In this document: positions 6,889-56,685 of the stretch, one piece after another
Numbering within the stretch: the first letter of the stretch is position 1
How the letters are laid out: each line of letters opens with the position of its first letter
Origin: Heptranchias perlo
Lineage: Eukaryota
DNA length: 64,000 nt
Direction of reading: 5' to 3'
Assembly: GCF_035084215.1 (NCBI RefSeq)
Contig: NC_090356.1
Span: forward strand, 15,810,001-15,874,000
Notes under the pieces: model-generated
Databases searched by the model: none
Seen by the model: only the letters and a program-made list of their open reading frames with translations
Told to the model about the DNA's origin: nothing
Program-made: the position numbers and the translations under genes

Positions 6889-7127
6889 TGCCTCAGTTGC
6901 CTAGGCCCTAAGTTCTGGAATTCCCTCCCACACCTCTCCACCTCTCTCTCCTCCTTGAAGACACTCCTTACAACCTACCTCTTTGACCAAGCTTTTGGTC
7001 ACCTGCCCTAATATCTCCTTATGTGGCTCGGTGTCAAATTTTGTTTGATAATCGCTTCTGTGAAGCACCTTGGGATGTTTTACTACATTAAAGGCGCTAT
7101 ATAAATGCAAGTTGTCGTTGTTGTTGT
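6889..7127 (+). mobile_element. L2 LINE 3' end
   Basis: 'SCLGPKFWNSLP...LKTLLTTYLFDQAF' and tail 'ggcgctatataaatgcaagttgtcgttgttg'. Confidence 0.8.
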
Positions 7128-7232
7128 TTTACAGTGCTCTGGTCTGGTCAGACCACACCAGTTTTTTTTAATTCTTTTATTCGTTCACGGGATGTGGGCG
7201 TCGCTGGCAAGGCCGGCATTTATTGCCCATCC

Positions 7233-10133
7233 CTAATTGCCCTCGAGAAGGTGGTGGTGAGCCGCCTTCTTGAACCGCTGCAGTCCGTGTGGTGACGGTT
7301 CTCCCACAGTGCTGTTAGGAAGGGAGTTCCAGGATTTTGACCCAGCGACAATGAAGGAACGGCGATATATTTCCAAGTCGGGATGGTGTGTGACTTGGAG
7401 GGGAATGTGCAGGTGGTGTTGTTCCCATGCGCCTGCTGCTCTTGTCCTTCTAGGTGGTAGAGGTCGCGGGTTTGGGAGAAGAAGCCTTGGCGAGTTGCTG
7501 CAGTGCATCCTGTGGATGGTGCACACTGCAGCCACAGTGCGCCGGAGGTGAAGGGAGTGAATGTTTAGGGTGGTGGAAGGGGTGCCAATCAAGCGGGCTG
7601 CTTTATCTTGGATGGTGTCAAGCTTCTTGAGTGTTGTTGGAGCTGCACTCATCCAGGCAAGTGGAGAGTATTCCATCACACTCCTGACTTGTGCCTTGTA
7701 GATGGTGGAAAGGCTTTGGGGAGTCAGGAGGTGAGTCACTCGCCGCAGAATACCCAGCCTCTGACCTGCTCTCGTAGCCACAGTATTTATATGGCTGGTC
7801 CAGTTAAGTTTCTGGTCAATGGTGACCCCCAGGATGTTGATGGTGGGGGATTCGGCGATGGTAATGCCGTTGAATGTCAAGGGGAGGTGGTTAGACTCTC
7901 TCTTGTTGGAGATGGTCATTGCCTGGCACTGATCTGGCGCGAATGTTACTTGCCACTTATGAGCCCAAGCCTGGATGTTGTCCAGGTCTTGCTGCATGCA
8001 GGCTCGGACTGCTTCATTATCTGAGGGGTTGCGAATGGAACTGAACACTGTGCAGTCATCAGCGAACATCCCCATTTCTGACCTTATGATGGAGGGAAGG
8101 TCATTGATGAAGCAGCTGAAGATGGTTGGGCCAAGGACACTGCCCTGAGGAACTCCTGCAGCAATGCCCTGGGGCTGAGATGATTGGCCTCCAACAACCA
8201 CTACCATCTTCCTTTGTGCTAGGTATGAGTCCAGCCACTGGAGAGTTTTCCCCCTGATTCCCATTGACTTCAATTTTACTAGGGCTCCTTGGTGCCACAC
8301 TCGGTCAAATGCTACCTTGATGTCAAGGGCAGTCACTCTCACCTCACCTCTGGAATTCAGCTCTTTTGTCCATGTTTGGACCAAGGCTGTAATGAGGCGT
8401 GGAGCCGAGTGGTCCTGGCGGAACCCAAACTGAGCATCGGTGAGCAGGTTATTGGTGAGTAAGTGCCGCTTGATAGCACTGTCGACGACACCTTCCATCA
8501 CTTTGCTGATGATTGAGAGTAGACTGATGGGGCGGTAATTGGCCGGATTGGATTTGTCCTGCTTTTTGTGGACAGGACATACCTGGGCAATTTTCCACAT
8601 TGTCGGGTGGATGCCAGTGTTGTAGCTGTACTGGAACAGCTTGGCTAGAGGCGCAGCTAGTTCTGGAGCACAAGACTTCAGCACTACAGCTGGGATGTTG
8701 TCGGGGCCCATAGCCTTTGCTGTATCCAGTGCACTCAGCCGTTTCTTGATATCACGTGGAGTGAATCGAATTGGCCGAAGACTGGCTTCTGTGATGGTGG
8801 GGATATCGGGAGGAGGCTGAGATGGATCATCCACTCGGCACTTCTGGCTGAAGATGGTTGCAAACGCTTCAGCCTTGTCTTTTGCACTCATGTGCTGGAC
8901 TCCGCCATCATTGAGAATGGGGATGTTTGCAGAGCCTCCTCCTCCCGTTAGTTGTTTAATTGTCCACCACCATTCACGACTGGATGTGGCAGGACTGCAG
9001 AGCTTTGATCTGATCCGTTGGTTGTGGAATCGCTTAGCTCTGTCTATAGCATGTTGCTTCCGCTGTTTAGCATGCATGTAGTCCTGAGTTGTAGCTTCAC
9101 CGGGTTGGCACCTCATTTTTAGGTACGCCTGGTGCTGCTCCTGGCATGCTCTTCTACACTCCTCATTGAACCAGGGTTGATCCCCTGGCTTGTTGGTAAT
9201 GGTAGAGTGAGGAATATGCCGGGCCATGAGGTTACAGATTGTGCTGGAATACAATTCTGCTGCTGCTGGCCCACAGCGCCTCATGGATGCCCAGTTTTGA
9301 GCTGCTAGATCTGTTCTGAATCTATCCCATTTAGCACGGTGGTAGTGCCACACAACACGTTGGATGGTGTCCTCAGTGCGAAGACGGGATTTCATCTCCA
9401 CGAGGACTGTGCGGTGGTCACTCCTACCAATACTGTCATGGACAGATGCAATTGCGACAGGTAGATTGGTGAGGACGAGGTCAAGTAAGTTTTTCCCTCG
9501 TGTTGGTTCGCTCACCACCTGCCGCAGGCCCAGTCTAGCAGCTATGTCCTTCAGGACTCGGCCAGCTCTGGTGCTACCGAGCCACTCTTGGTGATGGACA
9601 TTGAAGTCCCCCACCCAGAGTACATTTTGTGCCCTTGCTACCCTCAGTGCTTCCTCCAAGTGGTGCTCAACATGGAGGAGGACTGATTCATCAGCTGAGG
9701 GAGGACGGTAGGTGGTAATCAGCAGGAGGTTGCCTTGCCCATGTTTGACCTGATGCCATGAGATTTCATGGGGTCCAGAGTCAATGTTGAGGACTCCTAG
9801 GGCCACTCCCTCCTGACTGTATATCACTGTACCGTCACCTCTGGTGGGTCTGTCCTGCCGGTGGGACAGGACATACCCAGGGATGGTGATGGAAGAGTCT
9901 GGGACGTTGGCTGACAGATATGATTCTGTGAGTATGGCTATGTCAGGCTGTTGCTTGACTAGTCTGTGGGACAGCTCTCCCAATTTTGGCACAAGTCCCC
10001 AGATGTTAGTAAGGAGGACCTTGCAGGGTCGACTGGGCTTGGTGTTTTGCCGTTGTCGTGTCCGGTGCCTAGTGGTCCGATGCCGGGTGGTCTGTCCGGT
10101 TTTATTCTTATTATGACTTTTCGTAGCGAGATT
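7233..10133 (-). CDS. APE endonuclease + reverse transcriptase; frame open from the TAA at 10136-10134, no ATG before the APE domain
   Basis: APE motifs VLLTNIWGL, LTESYL, YRPP, GDFNVHH, LDLVLT, SDH; RT motifs NYRPISLL, QFGFR, DIKVAFDRV, GVPQGSVLGP, FADD. The ORF-track start at 9992 is a GTG; 47 further sense codons lie upstream. Confidence 0.92.
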   Translation of the reverse strand, partial: NLATKSHNKNKTGQTTRHRTTRHRTRQRQNTKPSRPCKVLLTNIWGLVPKLGELSHRLVKQQPDIAILTESYLSANVPDSSITIPGYVLSHRQDRPTRGDGTVIYSQEGVALGVLNIDSGPHEISWHQVKHGQGNLLLITTYRPPSADESVLLHVEHHLEEALRVARAQNVLWVGDFNVHHQEWLGSTRAGRVLKDIAARLGLRQVVSEPTRGKNLLDLVLTNLPVAIASVHDSIGRSDHRTVLVEMKSRLRTEDTIQRVVWHYHRAKWDRFRTDLAAQNWASMRRCGPAAAELYSSTICNLMARHIPHSTITNKPGDQPWFNEECRRACQEQHQAYLKMRCQPGEATTQDYMHAKQRKQHAIDRAKRFHNQRIRSKLCSPATSSREWWWTIKQLTGGGGSANIPILNDGGVQHMSAKDKAEAFATIFSQKCRVDDPSQPPPDIPTITEASLRPIRFTPRDIKKRLSALDTAKAMGPDNIPAVVLKSCAPELAAPLAKLFQYSYNTGIHPTMWKIAQVCPVHKKQDKSNPANYRPISLLSIISKVMEGVVDSAIKRHLLTNNLLTDAQFGFRQDHSAPRLITALVQTWTKELNSRGEVRVTALDIKVAFDRVWHQGALVKLKSMGIRGKTLQWLDSYLAQRKMVVVVGGQSSQPQGIAAGVPQGSVLGPTIFSCFINDLPSIIRSEMGMFADDCTVFSSIRNPSDNEAVRACMQQDLDNIQAWAHKWQVTFAPDQCQAMTISNKRESNHLPLTFNGITIAESPTINILGVTIDQKLNWTSHINTVATRAGQRLGILRRVTHLLTPQSLSTIYKAQVRSVMEYSPLAWMSAAPTTLKKLDTIQDKAARLIGTPSTTLNIHSLHLRRTVAAVCTIHRMHCSNSPRLLLPNPRPLPPRRTRAAGAWEQHHLHIPLQVTHHPDLEIYRRSFIVAGSKSWNSLPNSTVGEPSPHGLQRFKKAAHHHLLEGN

Positions 10134-10344
10134 TTACAACTGATTGGCTTGCTCGGCCATTTCAGAGGGCAATTAAGAATCAACCACATTGCTGTGGGTC
10201 TGGAGTCACATATCGGCCAGACCGGGTTTTTACGACAATCCGGTAGTTTCATGGCCATCATTACTGATACTAGTATTTTAATTCCAGATTTTTATTTATT
10301 TAATTAATTGAATTTTTTAATTAATTAATTGAATTTAAATTCGC

Positions 10345-10440
10345 CAGCTGCCGTGGCGGGATTTGAACTCATGACTTTGGATTTTTAGTCCAGGCCTCTG
10401 GATTACTAGCCCAGTAACATAACCTCTATGCTACCGTACC
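10345..10440 (-). promoter_or_regulatory. tRNA-Thr(AGT)-like internal Pol III promoter: A box 10433-10423, B box 10370-10359
   Basis: Sense reads GGTACGG TAGCATAGAGG (A box) ... CTGGG CTAGTAA TCCAG (anticodon arm, AGT) ... GAGTTCAAATCC (B box). Confidence 0.85.
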
Positions 10441-10671
10441 AAGACACAAAGGAGACATTCAAACCCTGATGACAGTGCAGAGAAGAGGCAGGAAAACTGA
10501 TCCCTAGCATCAGAGGGCTGAGACATGAGGAGTGACTGGAAAAAGGCTTTTCAGCCTTTAAAAGAAGTGACTGATATATATCAGAGAGGTGTATAAGATA
10601 GTAAATGGTGTATCCGTACTTATGATCTTGTGAACTAGGTATTTCACTGTTATGGAAGGAAATCCTTAAAA

Positions 10672-11062
10672 TAAAGAAAGATTTGCATTTATATAGCGCC
10701 TTTCACAACCTCAGGACCTCCCAAAGCGCTTTAGGGCCAATGAAGTACCTTTGAAGTGCAGCCACTGTTGTAATGTAGGAAACGCAGTTGTCAATTTGCG
10801 CACAGCAAGGTCCCACAAACAGCAATGTGATAACGACCAGATAATCTGTTTTTAGTGATGTTGGTTGAGGGATAGATATTGACTAGGACACCGGGGAGAA
10901 CTCCCCTGCTCTTCTTGAAATTGTGCCATGGAATCCTTTATGTCCACTTGAGAGGGAAGACGGGGCCTTGGTTTAATGTCTCATCCGAAAGACGACACCT
11001 CCGACAGTGTAGCACTCCCTCAGTACTGCACTGGAGTGTCTGCCTAGATTTTGTGCTCAAGT
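10672..11062 (-). mobile_element. Deu-SINE, head missing
   Basis: Well-preserved body and tail matching the copies at 23690-24144 and 62080-62500. Confidence 0.8.
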
Positions 11063-24190: not shown

Positions 24191-24706
24191 ATGGAATACT
24201 CTCCACTTGCCTGGGTGAGTGCAGCTCCAACAACACTCAAGAAGCTTGACACCATCCAGGACAAAGCAGCCCGCTTGATTGGCACCGCATCCACCACCCT
24301 AAACTTTCACTCCCTTCACCACTGGCGCACAGTGGCTGCAGTGTGTACCATCCACAGGATGCACTGCAGCAACTCGCCAAGGCTTCTTTGACAGCACCTC
24401 CCCAACCCACGACCTCTACCATCTAGAAGGATAAGGGCAGCAGGCACATGGGAACAACACCACCTGCATGTTCCCCTCCAAGTCACACACCATCCCGACT
24501 TGGAAATATATCGCCGTTCCTTCATCGTCGCTGGGTCAAAATCCTGGAACTCCCTTCCTAACAACACTGTGGGAGAACCTTCACCACACGGACTGCAGCG
24601 GTTCAAGAAGGCGGCTCACCACCACCTTCTCATGGGTAATTAGGGATGGGTAATAAATGCTGGCCTCGCCAGCGACACCCACATCCCATGAACAAATAAA
24701 AAAAAA
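24191..24706 (+). mobile_element. 5'-truncated copy of the 7162-10440 LINE family
   Basis: 'MEYSPLAWVSAAPTTLKKLDTIQDKAARLIG...' nearly identical to the long copy; ends in poly(A). Confidence 0.92.
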
Positions 24707-51379: not shown

Positions 51380-54170
51380 ATTAAACTGCATTTATTTCAA
51401 TGCAAGAAGTCTGATGGACAAGGGCACGGATGGGTACATGGGACTGGGATGTTATAGCTATTACTGAAACATGGCTAAGGGAGGGGCAGGACTGGCAGCT
51501 CAATGTTCCAGGGTATGGATGCTATAGGAAAGATAGAGCAGGAGGTAAGAGAGGAGGGGGAGTTGCGTTCTTGATTAGGGAGAACATCACGGCAGTAGTG
51601 AGAGGGGATATATCCGAGGGTTCGCCCACTGAGTCTATATGGGTAGAACTGAAAAATAAGAAGGGAGAGATCACTTTGATAGGATTGTACTACAGACCCC
51701 CAAATAGTCAACGGGAAATTGAGGAGCAAATATGTAAAGAGATTACAGACAGCTGCAAGAAAAATAGGGTGGTAATAGTAGGGGACTTTAACTTTCCCAA
51801 CATTGACTGGGACAGCCATAGCATTAGGGGCTTGGATGGAGAGAAATTTGTTGAGTGTATTCAGGAGGAATTTCTCATTCAGTATGTGGATGGCCCGACT
51901 AGAGAGGGGGCAAAACTTGACCTCCTCTTGGGAAATAAGGAAGGGCAGGTGACAGAAGTGTTAGTGAGGGACCACTTTGGGACCAGTGATCATAATTCCA
52001 TTAGTTTTAAGATAGCTATGGAGAATGATAGGTCTGGCCCAAAAGTTAAAATTCTAAATTGGGGAAAGGCCAATTTTGACGGTATTAGACAGGAACTTTC
52101 AGTAGTTGATTGGGAGAGTCTGTTGGCAGGCAAAGGGACGTCCAGTAAGTGGGAGGCTTTCAAAAGTGTGTTAACCAGGGTTCAGGGTAAGCACATTCCT
52201 TATAAAGTGAAGGGCAAGGCTGGTAGAAGTAGGGAACCTTGGATGACTCGGGAGATTGAGGCCCTAGTCAGAAAGAAGAAGGAGGCATATGACATGCATA
52301 GACAGCTGGGATCAAGTGGATCCCTTGAAGAGTATAGAGATTGCCGGAGTAGAGTTAAGAGAGAAATCAGGAGGGCAAAAAGGGGACATGAGATTGCTTT
52401 TGCAGATAAGGCAAAGGAGAATCCAAAGAGCTTCTACAAATACATAAAGGGCAAAAGAGTAACTAGGGAGAGAGTAGGGCCTCTTAAGGATCAACAAGGT
52501 CATCTATGTGCGGAACCACAAGAGATGGGTGAGATCCTGAATGAATATTTCACATCGGTATTTACGGTTGGGAAAGGCATGGATGTTAGGGAACTTGGGG
52601 AAATAAATAGTGATGTCTTGAGGAGTGTACATATTACAGAGAGGGAGGTGCTGGAAGTCTTAACGCGCATCAAGGTAGATAAATCTCCGGGACCTGATGA
52701 AATGTATCCCAGGACGTTATGGGAGGTTAGGGAGGAAATTGCGGGTCCCCTAGCAGAGATATTTAAATCATCGACAGCTACAGGTGAGGTGCCTGAAGAT
52801 TGGAGGGTAGCAAATGTTGTGCCTTTGTTTAAGAAGGGCGGCAGGGAAAAGCCTGGGAACTACAGACCGGTGAGCCTGACATCTGTAGTGGGTAAGTTGT
52901 TCGAGGGTATTCTGAGAGACAGGATCTACAGGCATTTGGAGAGGCAGGGACTGATTAGCAACAGTCAGCATGGTTTTGTGAGAGGAAAATCATGTCTCAC
53001 GAATTTGATTGAGTTTTTTGAAGGGGTAACCAAGAAGATAGATGAGGGCTGTGCAGTAGACGTGGTCTACATGGACTTTAGCAAAGCCTTTGACAAGGTA
53101 CCGCATGGTAGGTTGTTACATAAGGTTAAATCTCACGGGATCCAAGGTGAGGTAGCCAATTGGATACAAAATTGGATTGACGACAGAAGACAGAGGGTGG
53201 TTGTAGAGGGTTGTTTTTCAAACTGGAGGCCTGTGACCAGCGGTGTGCCTCAGGGATCGGTGCTGGGTCCGCTGTATTTACTATTTATATTAATGATTTG
53301 GATGAGAATTTAGGAGGCATGGTTAGTAAGTTTGCAGATGACACCAAGATTGGTGGCATTGTGGACAGTGAAGAAGGTTATCTAGGATTGCAACGGGATC
53401 TTGATAAATTGGGCCAGTGGGCCGATGAATGGCAGATGGAGTTTAATTTAGATAAATGTGAGGTGATGCATTTTGGTAGATCGAATCGGGCCAGGACCTA
53501 CTCTGTTAATGGTAGGGCGTTGGGGAGAGTTATAGAACAAAGAGATCTGGGAGTACAGGTTCATAGCTCCTTGAAAGTGGAGTCACAGGTGGATAGGATG
53601 GTGAAGAAGGCATTCGGCATGCTTGGTTTCATTGGTCAGAACATTGAATACAGGAGTTGGGATGTCTTGTTGAAGTTGTACAAGACATTAGTTAGGCCAC
53701 ACTTGGAATACTGTGTACAGTTCTGGTCACCCTATTATCGAAAGGATATTATTAAACTAGAAAGAGTGCAGAAAAGATTTACAAGGATGCTACCGGGACT
53801 TGATGGTTTGACTTATAGGGAGAGGTTGGATAGACTAAGACTTTTTTCCCTGGAGAGTAGGAGGTTTAGGGGTGATCTTATAGAAGTCTATAAAATAATG
53901 AGGGGCATAGATAAGGTAGATAGTCAAAATCTTTTCCCAAAGGTAGGGGAGTCTATAACGAGGGGGCATAGATTTAAGGTGAGAGGGGAGAGATACAAAA
54001 GGGTCCAGAGGGGCAATTTTTTCACTCAAAGGGTGGTGAGTGTCTGGAACGAGCTGCCAGAGGCAGTAGTAGAGGCGGGTACAATTTTGTCTTTTAAAAA
54101 GCATTTGGACAGTTACATGGGTAAGATGGGTATAGAGGGATATGGGCCAAGTGCAGGCAATTGGGACTAG
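51380..54170 (+). pseudogene. CR1 ORF2 (APE + RT), frameshifted near 51420 and near 53277
   Basis: YFNARS, ITETWL, YYRPP, GDFN, SDHN, NYRPVSL, DFSKAFDKV, GVPQGSVLGP, KFADDTK; split across track ORFs 51430-53313 and 53211-54170. Confidence 0.93.
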
Positions 54171-54290
54171 CTTAGTGGTATAAACTGGGCGACATGGACA
54201 TGTTGGGCCGAAGGGACTGTTTCCATGTTGTAAACTTCTATGATTCTATGATTCTATTAAGAAGCCCTACCCCCTACCTTGACTATCCTC

Positions 54291-54715
54291 TTTTTTATGT
54301 TCATTCTTGGAAAGGCCAGTATTTATTGCCCATCTCTAGTTGTCCTTGAGAAGGTGATGGTGGGCCGCCTTCTTGAACCACTGCATTGGAGCTTGCTAGC
54401 CCACTTCAGAGGGCAGTTAAGATTCAACCATGTTGGTATGGAACCAGAGTCACATGAAGGCAAGACCGGGTAAGGAGCTTTCCCTCCCTAATAGAAAAAA
54501 CATAGAAAACATAGAAAATGGACATTAGTGAGTCAGTTGGGTTTTTACGACAACCCGACAGCTTCATGGTCACTTTTACTGGTACCAGCTTTATGTTTCC
54601 AAATTTTTCTATAAATTGAACAGAAATTCTCAAACTCCCATGGTGGGATTTGAACTCATTCTCTGGATTATTAGTCCAGGCCTCTGGATTACAAATCCAT
54701 TAATATAACTACTTA
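54291..54715 (-). mobile_element. tRNA-Thr-like SINE made of the 5' leader and 3' tail of the 7162-10440 LINE family
   Basis: 54715-54391 aligns to about 10435-10149; 54385-54291 aligns to about 7282-7175; no ORF between. Confidence 0.88.
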
Positions 54716-55672
54716 CTAATAAAGAAAGTCGTTTTGTTGCCTTTTGCTAATTTTCATTACAGAAAGTCGTTTCGATGCCTTTCTCTCATATGCCCTCTTA
54801 ACCTTTATAATCTCTCTTTTTGCAGCTTTCCTATATTCTTTAAATTTGTCCTGGCTTTTTTTTTATTATCTCTCCTGTGCAGACCAGATACTTCATTTTC
54901 TGGTTTCAACAGTGATCTAATCTCACTATTCATCCATGGAATCCCAGTCATGCTCCTTTTTTATCTTATTGAAATATACTTGATTTGTATCATTTCCATC
55001 TCCTGTTTAAAGAGTTTTTATTGCTAACCCATAGTTCTGTTTGCCAATTGTCCTACCATTTAATCTCGGCAATGCCCTTTTTTTATCTCACGATAACTTA
55101 TTTATTTGCCAGTGAAACATCCTTGTTCTGGACTTTTCTTTTTCTAGTGAACTTACTTATATTGTTGTCACTACATTCCTAATAATTCCCCTAGTTTTAG
55201 ATTAGCTGTTTGCTCCAACTTATTACTCCAAGGCAGGTCAAGCCGTGCTTCCTTCCTTGTTGGAGTAGCAACCTAGCAATTGAAAGAACAATCCTGAACA
55301 CACTCCCAAATAAACCTTCCCCTTTCTCATCACAAATATTTTCCCTATCTTTGTTGGATAATTAAAGTCTCCTATAATTAAAACTCCATTGTTAATACAC
55401 TCCTCTCTAATTTGTCTACAAATTGCATCATTGATTTCCTTTCTACTGTTTGGCAGTCTATAATATACTCCCAATAATGTTCCTTGCTAAGCCTCAGTTC
55501 AATCCAAAGGGATTTTGGTTGGACCACTTCTCTATTTACATCCTTACATTCTAGTGTTAGGATATTGTCTTTGATTGGTACCTCTATCCCTTCAACTTGC
55601 CTTCTCTACCACTTCTGAAAATGTTATACCCAGGGAATACTTAATATGTGATCCTGACCCACTGCAACCATG

Positions 55673-56685
55673 GGGGGGGGGGGGAGTTTTAACCCCCAAG
55701 AACAGGTGGGTTGGGGCGGGTAGGCAGTTAAAATAATCGATTTTTGGAACACGACCATACCTCAGCTCCAATACGCCCACTTCTGGGTTTAACGGAGGAG
55801 CGTTTGGATGCGTCCCAATAACCTACTGACCATAATTATTTCAGGCGGGCGGGTAGTTAACGGAGCAATTAACGTGATTATGAGGCATTAAGCAGGTGTT
55901 TTTAAATGAATTTAAGACACCTTCGGATTTAACACCTCCAGCATGGGGTTTCTGGGTCGCCGGAATCACGGCAGGTAAAAGGAGGCGAGTAGGGTTGGAT
56001 CCTTGAGGTAAGTACCTTTATTGCACTGCTTGAGGGCCAGGAGGAACAGGGGTGCTCCCCAGTGGCTCACCAAACTTACCTGCTGTGATCGGACCCCCGC
56101 GATCGGCCAATCCCCACACCAGCGTTCAGCCGATTTCCCCCCCTCCCCCACTACCAATATACGACCCCCTCCCTACCTCCAATGTCCAACTCTTCTCCCA
56201 ATCTGCGATGTCCAACTCCCCCCCCCACCCCCCAAGTTTTTTATCATTCGTTCATGGGATGTGGGCATCGCTGGCAAGGCCAGCATTTATTGCCCGTCCC
56301 TAATTGCCCTTGAGAAGGTGGTGATGAGCCACCTTCTTGAACCGCTGCAGTCGGTTCTCCTGGCATCAGACCCCCCCCCCCTCCCCATCTCCACCTACCA
56401 GCCCGCGATCTTCTCCCCGGCTCCCCCCCCAACTCCCGATATCCTCCACGCCCCCCCCCCCCCACCGCCCCCAACCCCATGTCCTCCACAGCCCACGATC
56501 TCTCCCTCCTTCCCTCACTCCCTTCCACCTTTCCACTTTCTGGCTGCGGGAAACCGATTTGAAAAATTTAAAACAGGTCCTACCATTAAATTCGGTAGGA
56601 TCTGCAAGAAACCCGGACTTCCGGGTTTCCTGTCCGCAAACCCTCCCCCTGCTCGCTTCCCAGCTCCAAGTTAAAACCCAGGCCC
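55673..56685 (+). mobile_element. Non-autonomous Harbinger element with 3-bp TSD (ATG)
   Basis: Left ~130 bp homologous to the end of the 59590-61420 element; ATG at 55670-55672 and 56686-56688; removal restores CR1 'gagacatggttg' (ETWL) on minus. Confidence 0.8.
56237..56352 (-). mobile_element. Short 3' copy of the tRNA-headed LINE family nested in the Harbinger element
   Basis: Near-identical to 7176-7286. Confidence 0.88.

What the first reader, a model, noticed from the sequence alone, without database searches (positions are those of the whole stretch)
9959..10261. RT ORF has no AUG before the endonuclease; possible non-canonical initiation or frameshift
Seen: the frame opens after TAA (10136-10134) as NLATKSHNKNKTGQTTRHRTTRHRTRQRQNTKPSRPCKVLLTNIWGLVPK; the first in-frame ATG is about 200 codons past 9992, at the end of the APE domain. 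An AUG-initiated 100-aa ORF (10261-9959) overlaps it, with the RT frame at -1 relative to it; no canonical slippery heptamer is visible. Established: Pol III RNAs are uncapped, and R2 elements are thought to initiate translation without a cap. Inference: IRES-like or non-AUG initiation, or a -1 shift. A private 1-nt indel in this copy is also possible.
Basis: partly seen in the sequence, partly recalled or inferred. Interest (0 to 1): 0.72.

Follow-up and report, generated by a model that had tools for sequence, protein, structure and literature searches.

The report
Shark retrotransposon with no start codon
An abundant, recently active shark jumping gene carries a tRNA-type promoter and has no normal start codon for its only protein, so it is probably transcribed like a tRNA and translated by an unusual internal-start route that can now be tested.

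Summary
Confirmed and family-wide. The element is an elasmobranch Zenon LINE (CR1 group: one APE-RT frame, no ORF1, A-tail). In 49 of 50 young copies the RT frame has no AUG before the endonuclease, yet this lineage is under purifying selection. The '100-aa ORF' results from a 49-nt deletion (2 of 30 copies); the usual uORF is 76 aa and its AUG is not conserved. The 5' end is a tRNA-like A/B-box head and the 3.3-kb sense strand has no TTTT (a young CR1 of the same genome: 8-16 per ORF), which points to an uncapped Pol III transcript. Older subfamilies and published shark and ray consensuses fix the frame only from a conserved GCU at 10127. That GCU complements the AGC of a conserved anticodon-like hairpin loop upstream, as in dicistrovirus IGR IRESs. 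This pairing shows no compensatory change, three dogfish consensuses do not fit, and no RNA-end or protein data exist. Readthrough and -1 frameshifting fit poorly. The family is published, but that paper's main text never mentions tRNA, Pol III or start codons. This scan noted the Pol III head before on two other genomes; those note summaries do not cover the start.

The parts
7162..10440 (-). Full-length Zenon-type (CR1-group) LINE copy, about 3.28 kb, A-rich tail, no clear target-site duplication
   Evidence: Sharp shared 5' end; 20 of 20 top head matches continue through the ORF and 19 reach the tail; no convincing TSD in 19 copies; same 5' part as published Zenon consensuses
10350..10440 (-). 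tRNA-like head: A box 10433-10423 (one substitution in this copy), D-arm and anticodon-arm likeness, B box 10368-10359
   Evidence: Sequence. The best-scoring Rfam match in the 526-nt 5' region of L050 is tRNA RF00005, 20.1 bits, below the 29-bit cut-off, E 0.14. ARAGORN finds no tRNA in the window
10137..10349 (-). Leader body, strongly conserved across sharks and a ray, with several short AUG uORFs; kept by most internally deleted derivatives
   Evidence: derivatives
10224..10228 (-). Site of a 49-nt deletion in this copy; it creates the 100-aa ORF
   Evidence: Alignment of 30 copies; 2 of 30 carry it
10140..10165 (-). Anticodon-like hairpin with a 7-nt loop CUAGCAA (10155-10149). The in-frame ATG at 10160 and the following TAG lie inside it. 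This copy has two substitutions in it
   Evidence: In both MFE and centroid folds of L006; core pair probabilities 0.85-0.91; loop identical in the majority of subfamilies A and C and in 6 of 7 published consensuses
10128..10136 (-). Variable spacer that holds the TAA. It reads TAA, TAC or TAT in different lineages and is one base shorter in the whale shark consensus
10124..10127 (-). Conserved GCU(A) in the RT frame, complementary to loop bases UAGC; proposed P-site codon mimic, with the first decoded codon at 10124
   Evidence: In frame in 30 of 30 and 19 of 20 young copies and in subfamily C; in frame in 4 of 7 published consensuses, by eye. The pairing itself is inferred
10020..10123 (-). 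Arg/Lys-rich N-terminal extension of the RT frame
   Evidence: Length differences between subfamilies A, B, C are multiples of three; Arg is kept through CGG/AGG/CGA swaps
7233..10133 (-). Open APE-RT frame, 966 codons (973 in intact relatives); first Met at 9395
   Evidence: 6 of 19 other full-length copies have a frame of more than 900 codons from VLLTN
9959..10189 (-). 76-aa AUG uORF overlapping the endonuclease start; the RT frame is -1 relative to it
   Evidence: 29 of 30 copies; ATG is ACG in the majority of subfamily C
7162..7232 (-). Short 3' UTR, AATAAA (7181-7176) and A-rich tail; no TTTT terminator inside the element

Best explanation
This is an autonomous elasmobranch Zenon LINE whose 5' end is a tRNA-derived Pol III promoter. 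SHOWN: single APE-RT frame, no AUG before the endonuclease across the family, purifying selection on the frame in the lineage that carries the TAA, A/B boxes, and no TTTT on the sense strand. INFERRED (about 0.8): Pol III transcribes the whole 3.3 kb, ending at the first T-run in the flank, so the RNA is uncapped and has a 460-nt leader with about 8 unusable AUGs. INFERRED (about 0.65): ribosomes enter internally through the conserved body and start in the RT frame without an AUG, between 10127 and about 10095, so the protein begins with the basic extension. MOST LIKELY DETAIL (about half of that): the anticodon-like hairpin loop pairs with the in-frame GCU at 10127-10125, as pseudoknot I does in dicistrovirus IGR IRESs, and decoding begins at 10124 without initiator Met-tRNA. 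The alternative detail is Met-tRNAi on a near-cognate codon that differs between lineages (ACG, AAG, AGG, ATA).
For: No AUG in 49 of 50 young copies. The first Met lies behind the endonuclease. Young-lineage branch: 6 synonymous versus 1 non-synonymous (plus 1 unassigned) codon changes, against a neutral 387:707, p 0.027; subfamily A versus C 27:18, p 0.0007. T-runs in the window copy: T3+ 5 and T4+ 0, against A3+ 51, C3+ 47, G3+ 33. The ORF has 4 T3 runs against 12.3 in synonymous shuffles (0 of 5000 as low) and uses TTT:TTC 3:16. A young CR1-like family of the same genome has 8-16 T4 runs per ORF in 12 of 12 copies, T3 z from -1.0 to +0.4. 54 of 55 metagenomic LINE ORFs have 5 or more T4 runs. 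Subfamilies B and C also lack T4 in the coding part covered. ATG 10160 is GTG and ATG 10189 is ACG by majority in C. The spacer varies in sequence, in stop content and by one base in length while GCU stays in frame. No near-cognate codon is shared by all lineages in that stretch (by eye). The hairpin pair 10160/10144 is G-C in C and A-U in the stingray consensus. No other shared 5' end was seen among 30 endonuclease-anchored copies.
Against: No RNA 5' end, cap state, polymerase or protein data; the only RNA-like run laid was guessed RNA and held as contigs. The loop:GCU pairing shows no compensatory change in any lineage, and four conserved bases can be chance. That hairpin pair is A-C in most sharks. 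The body is no more stable than shuffles (z -0.25, pseudoknots not counted). Rfam finds no IRES family. The three dogfish consensuses put GCU out of frame; they disagree with each other in this A-rich tract. With the invariant outer helix the spacer is 11-12 nt, against 6-10 in dicistroviruses. 7 of 10 old C copies have a T4-T8 run just behind the head, of varying length. 2 of 55 control ORFs had T3 z below ours, and the T4 count alone is only p 0.08 under the strict shuffle. 6 of 7 published consensuses have an AUG in the +1 frame about 22 nt behind the GCU.
Confidence: 0.55

Rival explanations
1. Protein comes from a minority source rather than from the typical AUG-less RNA: AUG-open masters (ATG 10160 with both stops absent), copies with a one-base insertion that fuses the uORF, or capped Pol II host transcripts that splice or read into a copy. 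The common copies ride in trans.
For: 345 of 6943 sites are open from ATG 10160. L045 fuses the uORF AUG to the RT frame. A CAG just before 10139 could serve as a weak splice acceptor (sequence, inference).
Against: The open type is 6 of the first 100 listed sites, about the product of the two single frequencies (42 and 19 of 100, counted by eye). The TAG changes to three different bases, unlinked to a similar site, and TpA is hypermutable in two LINE families here, so these look like post-insertion mutations. The 30 open copies fetched match the young reference at mostly 82-97%, like older copies. The TAA lineage itself shows purifying selection.
Confidence: 0.16
2. Translation starts in the +1 frame (AUG at 10189, or the AUG/AUA at about 10105) and shifts -1 into the RT frame before the first endonuclease motif.
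For: The +1 frame is open from 10189 across the endonuclease start in A and C. 6 of 7 published consensuses carry an AUG in that frame near 10105. An 8-bp stem is possible at the endonuclease start (sequence, by eye).
Against: No canonical slippery heptamer. ATG 10189 is ACG in C, and this uORF stops early in the whale shark consensus (by eye). The codon near 10105 is ATA in this genome's young family. By my hand count over all lineages, changes in the last 87 nt before VLLTN are synonymous in 10 of 23 cases in the RT frame and 6 of 22 in the +1 frame: weak, but the wrong direction.
Confidence: 0.14
3. Initiation at ATG 10160 with readthrough of the UAG (followed by CAA) and, in the young family, of the UAA.
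For: ATG 10160 is in the RT frame in A and B. UAG-CAA partly resembles a leaky-stop context (recalled). B and C lack the second stop.
Against: The youngest family has both stops in most copies and the TAA in 30 of 30. The ATG is GTG in 73% of C copies. The whale shark consensus has a one-base loss between this ATG and the RT frame.
Confidence: 0.05
4. The missing AUG is a private lesion of this copy.
For: The copy does carry private damage: a 49-nt leader deletion, a frame 7 codons short, A-box and hairpin substitutions.
Against: 49 of 50 young copies, including 973-codon intact frames, also lack it.
Confidence: 0.01

Closest known systems
Elasmobranch Zenon elements (CR1 group), PMC13343379 (2026)
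   Same: Single APE-RT ORF, no ORF1, poly-A tail, about 3.3 kb. The first 400 bases of the white shark, whale shark, catshark, dogfish and stingray consensuses carry the same head, body and hairpin.
   Different: The main text has no occurrence of tRNA, Pol III, polymerase III, promoter, start codon or methionine. Hagfish and coelacanth Zenon 5' ends show no such head by eye.
Lepidopteran Zenon and its internally deleted derivative Persaeus, PMC6740152
   Same: Zenon with bipartite 5'+3' derivatives, as seen here in 16 of 70 sampled sites.
   Different: Persaeus has no tRNA homology and no Pol III promoter.
tRNA-derived SINEs (SINE2)
   Same: A/B-box head, body, LINE-type tail, no internal T-run terminator.
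   Different: This element codes a selected 970-codon protein. PMC5786205 states that SINEs cannot encode a protein and that autonomous LINEs use Pol II. The body is not the Deu, Meta or UCON3 domain by eye.
RTE-1_DAn and relatives
   Same: LINEs with a tRNA-like sequence, mentioned in one sentence of PMC5786205.
   Different: RTE clade. Position, promoter use and start codon are not described there, and no sequence was compared.
Dicistrovirus IGR IRES, pseudoknot I
   Same: Anticodon-like hairpin, variable single-stranded spacer, complementary in-frame triplet, non-AUG start. PMC3894237 raised such elements in non-LTRs as a hypothetical.
   Different: No Rfam match, no PKII/PKIII shown, 3-4 possible pairs instead of 5, spacer 9-12 nt, no covariation in the key pairing.
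R2, RTE, Ingi and other LINEs with HDV-like 5' ribozymes
   Same: 5' ends made without a normal Pol II start. Cap-independent translation of such RNAs is recalled; the primary paper was not held.
   Different: No ribozyme match here; the 5' end is a tRNA-type promoter.

Membership tests
Zenon (CR1 group) | Single APE+RT ORF, no ORF1 | tested here: met
   Pfam; 460-nt leader with only short uORFs
Zenon (CR1 group) | Poly-A tail | tested here: met
   A-tail in 19 of 20 full-length copies
Zenon (CR1 group) | Sequence identity with published elasmobranch Zenon | tested here: met
   A 13-nt body motif was found in 5 supplement rows, all Zenon; their first 400 bases match by eye
Zenon (CR1 group) | RT groups with named Zenon references | tested here: inconclusive
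   No named Zenon protein was available. The RT falls in a 32-row group (99/97) apart from the genome's CR1-like control
Pol III type-2 transcription unit | A and B boxes in a tRNA-like head at the 5' end | tested here: met
   (Rfam tRNA match below cut-off)
Pol III type-2 transcription unit | No T4+ run on the sense strand | tested here: met
   0 in the window copy; a single private run in 3 of 20 copies; exception in old C copies
Pol III type-2 transcription unit | Pol III occupancy and uncapped 5'-triphosphate RNA | not testable with these tools
   No stranded raw RNA reads offered
SINE2 | Non-coding, non-autonomous | tested here: not met
   Intact, selected ORF. Its short derivatives do fit
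Dicistrovirus IGR IRES | Match to the Rfam models | tested here: not met
Dicistrovirus IGR IRES | Anticodon-mimic loop pairing with an in-frame triplet | tested here: inconclusive
   Complementary and conserved, no compensatory change; dogfish consensuses off frame
Dicistrovirus IGR IRES | PKII/PKIII ribosome-binding domain | tested here: inconclusive
   Body z -0.25; one linked double change A-U to G-C in the part deleted from this copy
Dicistrovirus IGR IRES | Factor- and Met-tRNAi-independent initiation | not testable with these tools
   Needs toeprints and edeine tests
2A-bearing non-LTR elements | DxExNPGP before the endonuclease | tested here: not met
   Absent in all three leader frames and in 19 close relatives

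The most novel reading that the evidence does not exclude
Sharks and rays carry an autonomous, protein-coding LINE that is transcribed end to end by RNA polymerase III and translated by a genome-encoded tRNA-mimic IRES that starts without AUG or initiator tRNA. It would be a cellular counterpart of the dicistrovirus IGR IRES, conserved across elasmobranchs, and the SINE-like deletion derivatives would keep it as a ribosome-binding module.
Probability: 0.25. Interest if true: 0.93.

Novelty: new variant of a known kind. Interest (0 to 1): 0.74.

Why it matters
The usual division is that LINEs are coding Pol II units and SINEs are non-coding Pol III units. A selected 970-codon ORF behind a tRNA promoter, with Pol III terminators purged over 3.3 kb, would break that division. 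It also gives a natural, high-copy test case of how an uncapped Pol III RNA is translated. How LINE ORF2-type proteins initiate is an open question (PMC3894237). Here the candidate start is narrowed to about 30 bases with a specific, mutable pairing. The element also shows one route by which SINE bodies arise, and it would be a compact Pol III-driven insertion system.

Tried and rejected
Private indel: rejected. 100-aa ORF as a real ORF1: rejected, it follows from a deletion. 2A peptide: absent. AUG-open master lineage: frequency fits recurrent TpA mutation. Strand-specific RT error at CTA: rejected, the signal is symmetric (CTA 0.053, TAG 0.047). Outer helix 10175-10170 with 10142-10137: not favoured by folding and broken in three published consensuses. 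Parent tRNA not identified: the Rfam genome search gave only Cys and Thr genes among the 8 of 30 loci scanned. Invertebrate relatives with DNA: only L051 was close and full length (37%); it has T4 runs and a Met before the endonuclease. Viral contigs gave nothing. The PDB search with the endonuclease part gave no meaningful hit. One search searched this family by mistake instead of the control; one search corrected it. The first control mutation spectrum included flanks and was redone. L261 was aligned in the wrong orientation, which was not used for counts. Of the 30 C loci, 6 had no anchor and were left out. Literature: ten full-text searches found no description of a Pol III-transcribed or AUG-less Zenon. 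Repbase Reports, most subscription journals, the Zenodo files of PMC13343379 and one supplement of PMC4824008 could not be seen.
Full report
What is there. The finding lies in the 5' part of a 3.28-kb element on the minus strand (10440-7162). It has one open frame of 966 codons with endonuclease and RT domains. The frame opens after TAA 10136, and its first ATG is residue 247, behind the whole endonuclease match at residues 43-240. Near-identical pieces sit in predicted shark proteins. The family is large and young: 9040 exact hits of a leader motif, and 40 of 40 scored ORF matches at 99% identity.

Copy survey. None of the 30 best copies has an ATG in the open frame upstream of VLLTN, and all have the TAA. 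Of 20 more full-length copies, one has such an ATG, through a private one-base insertion. Six of these copies, plus the window copy, keep frames of more than 900 codons. The usual overlapping ORF is 76 aa from ATG 10189. The nearest in-frame ATG (10160) is followed by TAG and then TAA. Genome-wide, 345 of 6943 sites are open past both. Among the first 100 listed sites I counted by eye 42 without the TAG, 19 without the TAA and 6 without both, which is what independence gives. TpA mutates about as fast as CpG, on both strands, in this family and in an unrelated LINE, so the loss of TAG looks post-insertional.

The frame is translated. I compared three subfamilies: young A, older B and old C. 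A versus C differ at 27 synonymous and 18 non-synonymous codons of 360. With C as outgroup, the A branch, which carries the TAA, has 6 synonymous, 1 non-synonymous and 1 unassigned change of 359 codons. Private changes in copies run 387 to 707; p is 0.027 and 0.0007 for the two tests. No second shared 5' end was seen among 30 copies picked by the endonuclease start: 12 reach the head, 15 end in the body, 3 end later, and their flanks share only two short matches. That is 30 of 2793 such sites.

Probable Pol III transcript. Copies begin sharply 8 bases before an A box, with a B box downstream. The best-scoring Rfam match to the 5' region is tRNA, below its cut-off. The sense strand of the window copy has no run of four T and five runs of three, against 51, 47 and 33 for A, C and G. 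The ORF has 4 T3 runs where synonymous shuffles give 12.3, none of 5000 as low. For T4 alone the strict shuffle gives p 0.08 and looser ones 0.014. A young CR1-like family of the same genome has 8-16 T4 runs per ORF in 12 of 12 copies. Of 80 metagenomic loci, 55 had a long clean ORF; 54 of these have five or more T4 runs, one short ORF has none, and two have a T3 z-score below ours. Against: 7 of 10 old C copies have a T4-T8 run behind the head. The lengths vary and young A-tails also grow T-runs, so I read this as decay, which is inference. That T4 stops vertebrate Pol III and that Pol III RNAs lack an m7G cap is established knowledge, recalled. No RNA-level test was possible: runs of three other organisms hold the head, body and endonuclease start as contigs.

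Identity. Supplementary Table 2 of PMC13343379 (passages and supplement rows read, each cut at 400 bases) lists seven elasmobranch Zenon consensuses with the same head and body. The paper defines Zenon by no ORF1 and a poly-A tail, both met here. Its main text has no hit for tRNA, Pol III, promoter, start codon or methionine. Hagfish and coelacanth Zenon 5' ends look different and T-rich. As in lepidopteran Zenon (PMC6740152, passages), internally deleted derivatives occur: of 70 sites taken from the first 100 listed of 9040, 51 run into the ORF, 16 join the leader to the tail and 3 are other.

Where the start can lie. In C, ATG 10160 reads GTG and ATG 10189 reads ACG by majority. The nine bases 10136-10128 differ between lineages and hold TAA, TAC or TAT. 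In the whale shark consensus they are eight bases, which takes both upstream AUGs out of their relation to the RT frame. Directly behind them a GCU(A) is conserved. It is in the RT frame in A, B and C and in the white shark, whale shark, catshark and stingray consensuses; in the stingray I could follow it to VLLTN. The three dogfish consensuses are off frame by different amounts in an A-rich tract (all read by eye). Downstream, length differences between subfamilies are multiples of three and Arg codons are kept by first- and third-position swaps. So the start most likely lies between 10127 and about 10095, where no AUG or near-cognate codon is common to all lineages.

A candidate mechanism. 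Upstream of the spacer is a hairpin with a 7-base loop, CUAGCAA, shaped like an anticodon loop with AGC in the anticodon position. AGC complements the conserved GCU. Hairpin, variable spacer and in-frame complementary triplet are the layout of pseudoknot I of dicistrovirus IGR IRESs, where three pairs suffice and spacers are 6-10 bases (PMC3517527, passages). It would explain why the stops and the one-base loss upstream do no harm. Support is limited. One stem pair is G-C in C, A-U in the stingray and A-C elsewhere, and one linked A-U to G-C change occurs in the body. The loop:GCU pairing never covaries, the body folds no better than shuffles, and Rfam has no match. I put this detail at about 0.3, and an internal non-AUG start of any kind on a Pol III RNA at 0.55.

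Rivals. A minority AUG-bearing or Pol II source (0.16) is not excluded but has no young clade in my samples. A -1 shift (0.14) keeps some weight because the +1 frame is open and six of seven published consensuses have a +1-frame AUG near 10105, but there is no slippery site and this genome has ATA there. Readthrough (0.05) needs two stops in the youngest family and fails in the whale shark consensus.

What is known. [quoted passage not shown] PMC3894237 (passages) allows atypical Pol II or Pol III promoters in non-LTR elements and raises IGR-type IRESs only as a possibility. PMC7245038 (passages and supplement), PMC4824008 (one section), PMC5499810 (two of six parts) and PMC3747384 (passages) describe other SINE bodies; by eye this body is not Deu, Meta or UCON3. 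Ten searches, listed under Tried and rejected, found no account of a Pol III-driven or AUG-less Zenon. Two unchecked notes of this scan report the tRNA head on other genomes, one of them also the T-run lack. I had reached these points before that call, and they are not independent evidence. One of them names L2 as closest; the supplement match says Zenon.

Verdict. Real and family-wide; a known family with an undescribed and unusual expression strategy. New variant of a known kind, interest 0.74. The window copy itself is damaged in the leader and is a poor choice for experiments.

Noticed in passing
L031-L050 and L318-L329: TpA dinucleotides mutate about as often as CpG, to several bases and on both strands, in two unrelated young LINE families. 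This suggests a genome-wide TpA-hypermutable germline signature.
   Followed up: partly
window 54290-54730 (-); L131-L155; L276-L369: Old and young bipartite derivatives join the leader to the tail. 5' breakpoints cluster 95-147 nt before VLLTN, and a few junctions recur and behave as SINE subfamilies. Other organisms show a common junction at the hairpin end.
   Followed up: partly
window about 10670-11055 (-): A Deu-domain SINE lies just upstream; it matches the AmnSINE1 Deu alignment by eye. A similar tail fragment follows the element on the other strand near 6890-7125.
   Followed up: no
window 24191-24701 (+), 56246-56352 (-): 5'-truncated copies of the same Zenon family, 92-93% identical.
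   Followed up: no
window 51448-53897 (+): A decayed LINE of another family, 26-28% protein identity, with 8 T4 runs.
   Followed up: no
window 10350-10440 (-); L247, L248, L258, L264: The head of A and B has a duplicated anticodon-arm-like segment of about 21 nt that several old C copies lack. Published consensuses differ in this segment too.
   Followed up: no
G000 C23, loci L186-L215: Dispersed tandem arrays of tRNA genes about 2.3-2.4 kb apart; 7 of 8 loci scanned are tRNA-Cys.
   Followed up: no
L035, L042, L049: A-tails of young copies gain internal T-runs, which could give a copy its own Pol III terminator.
   Followed up: no
P0015, P0045, P0053, P0054, P0057: Pieces of this LINE appear inside predicted shark host proteins in public annotation, probably as false exons.
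   Followed up: no
L012:1-77: A near-perfect 30-bp inverted repeat in the flank, giving weak miRNA-model hits.
   Followed up: no
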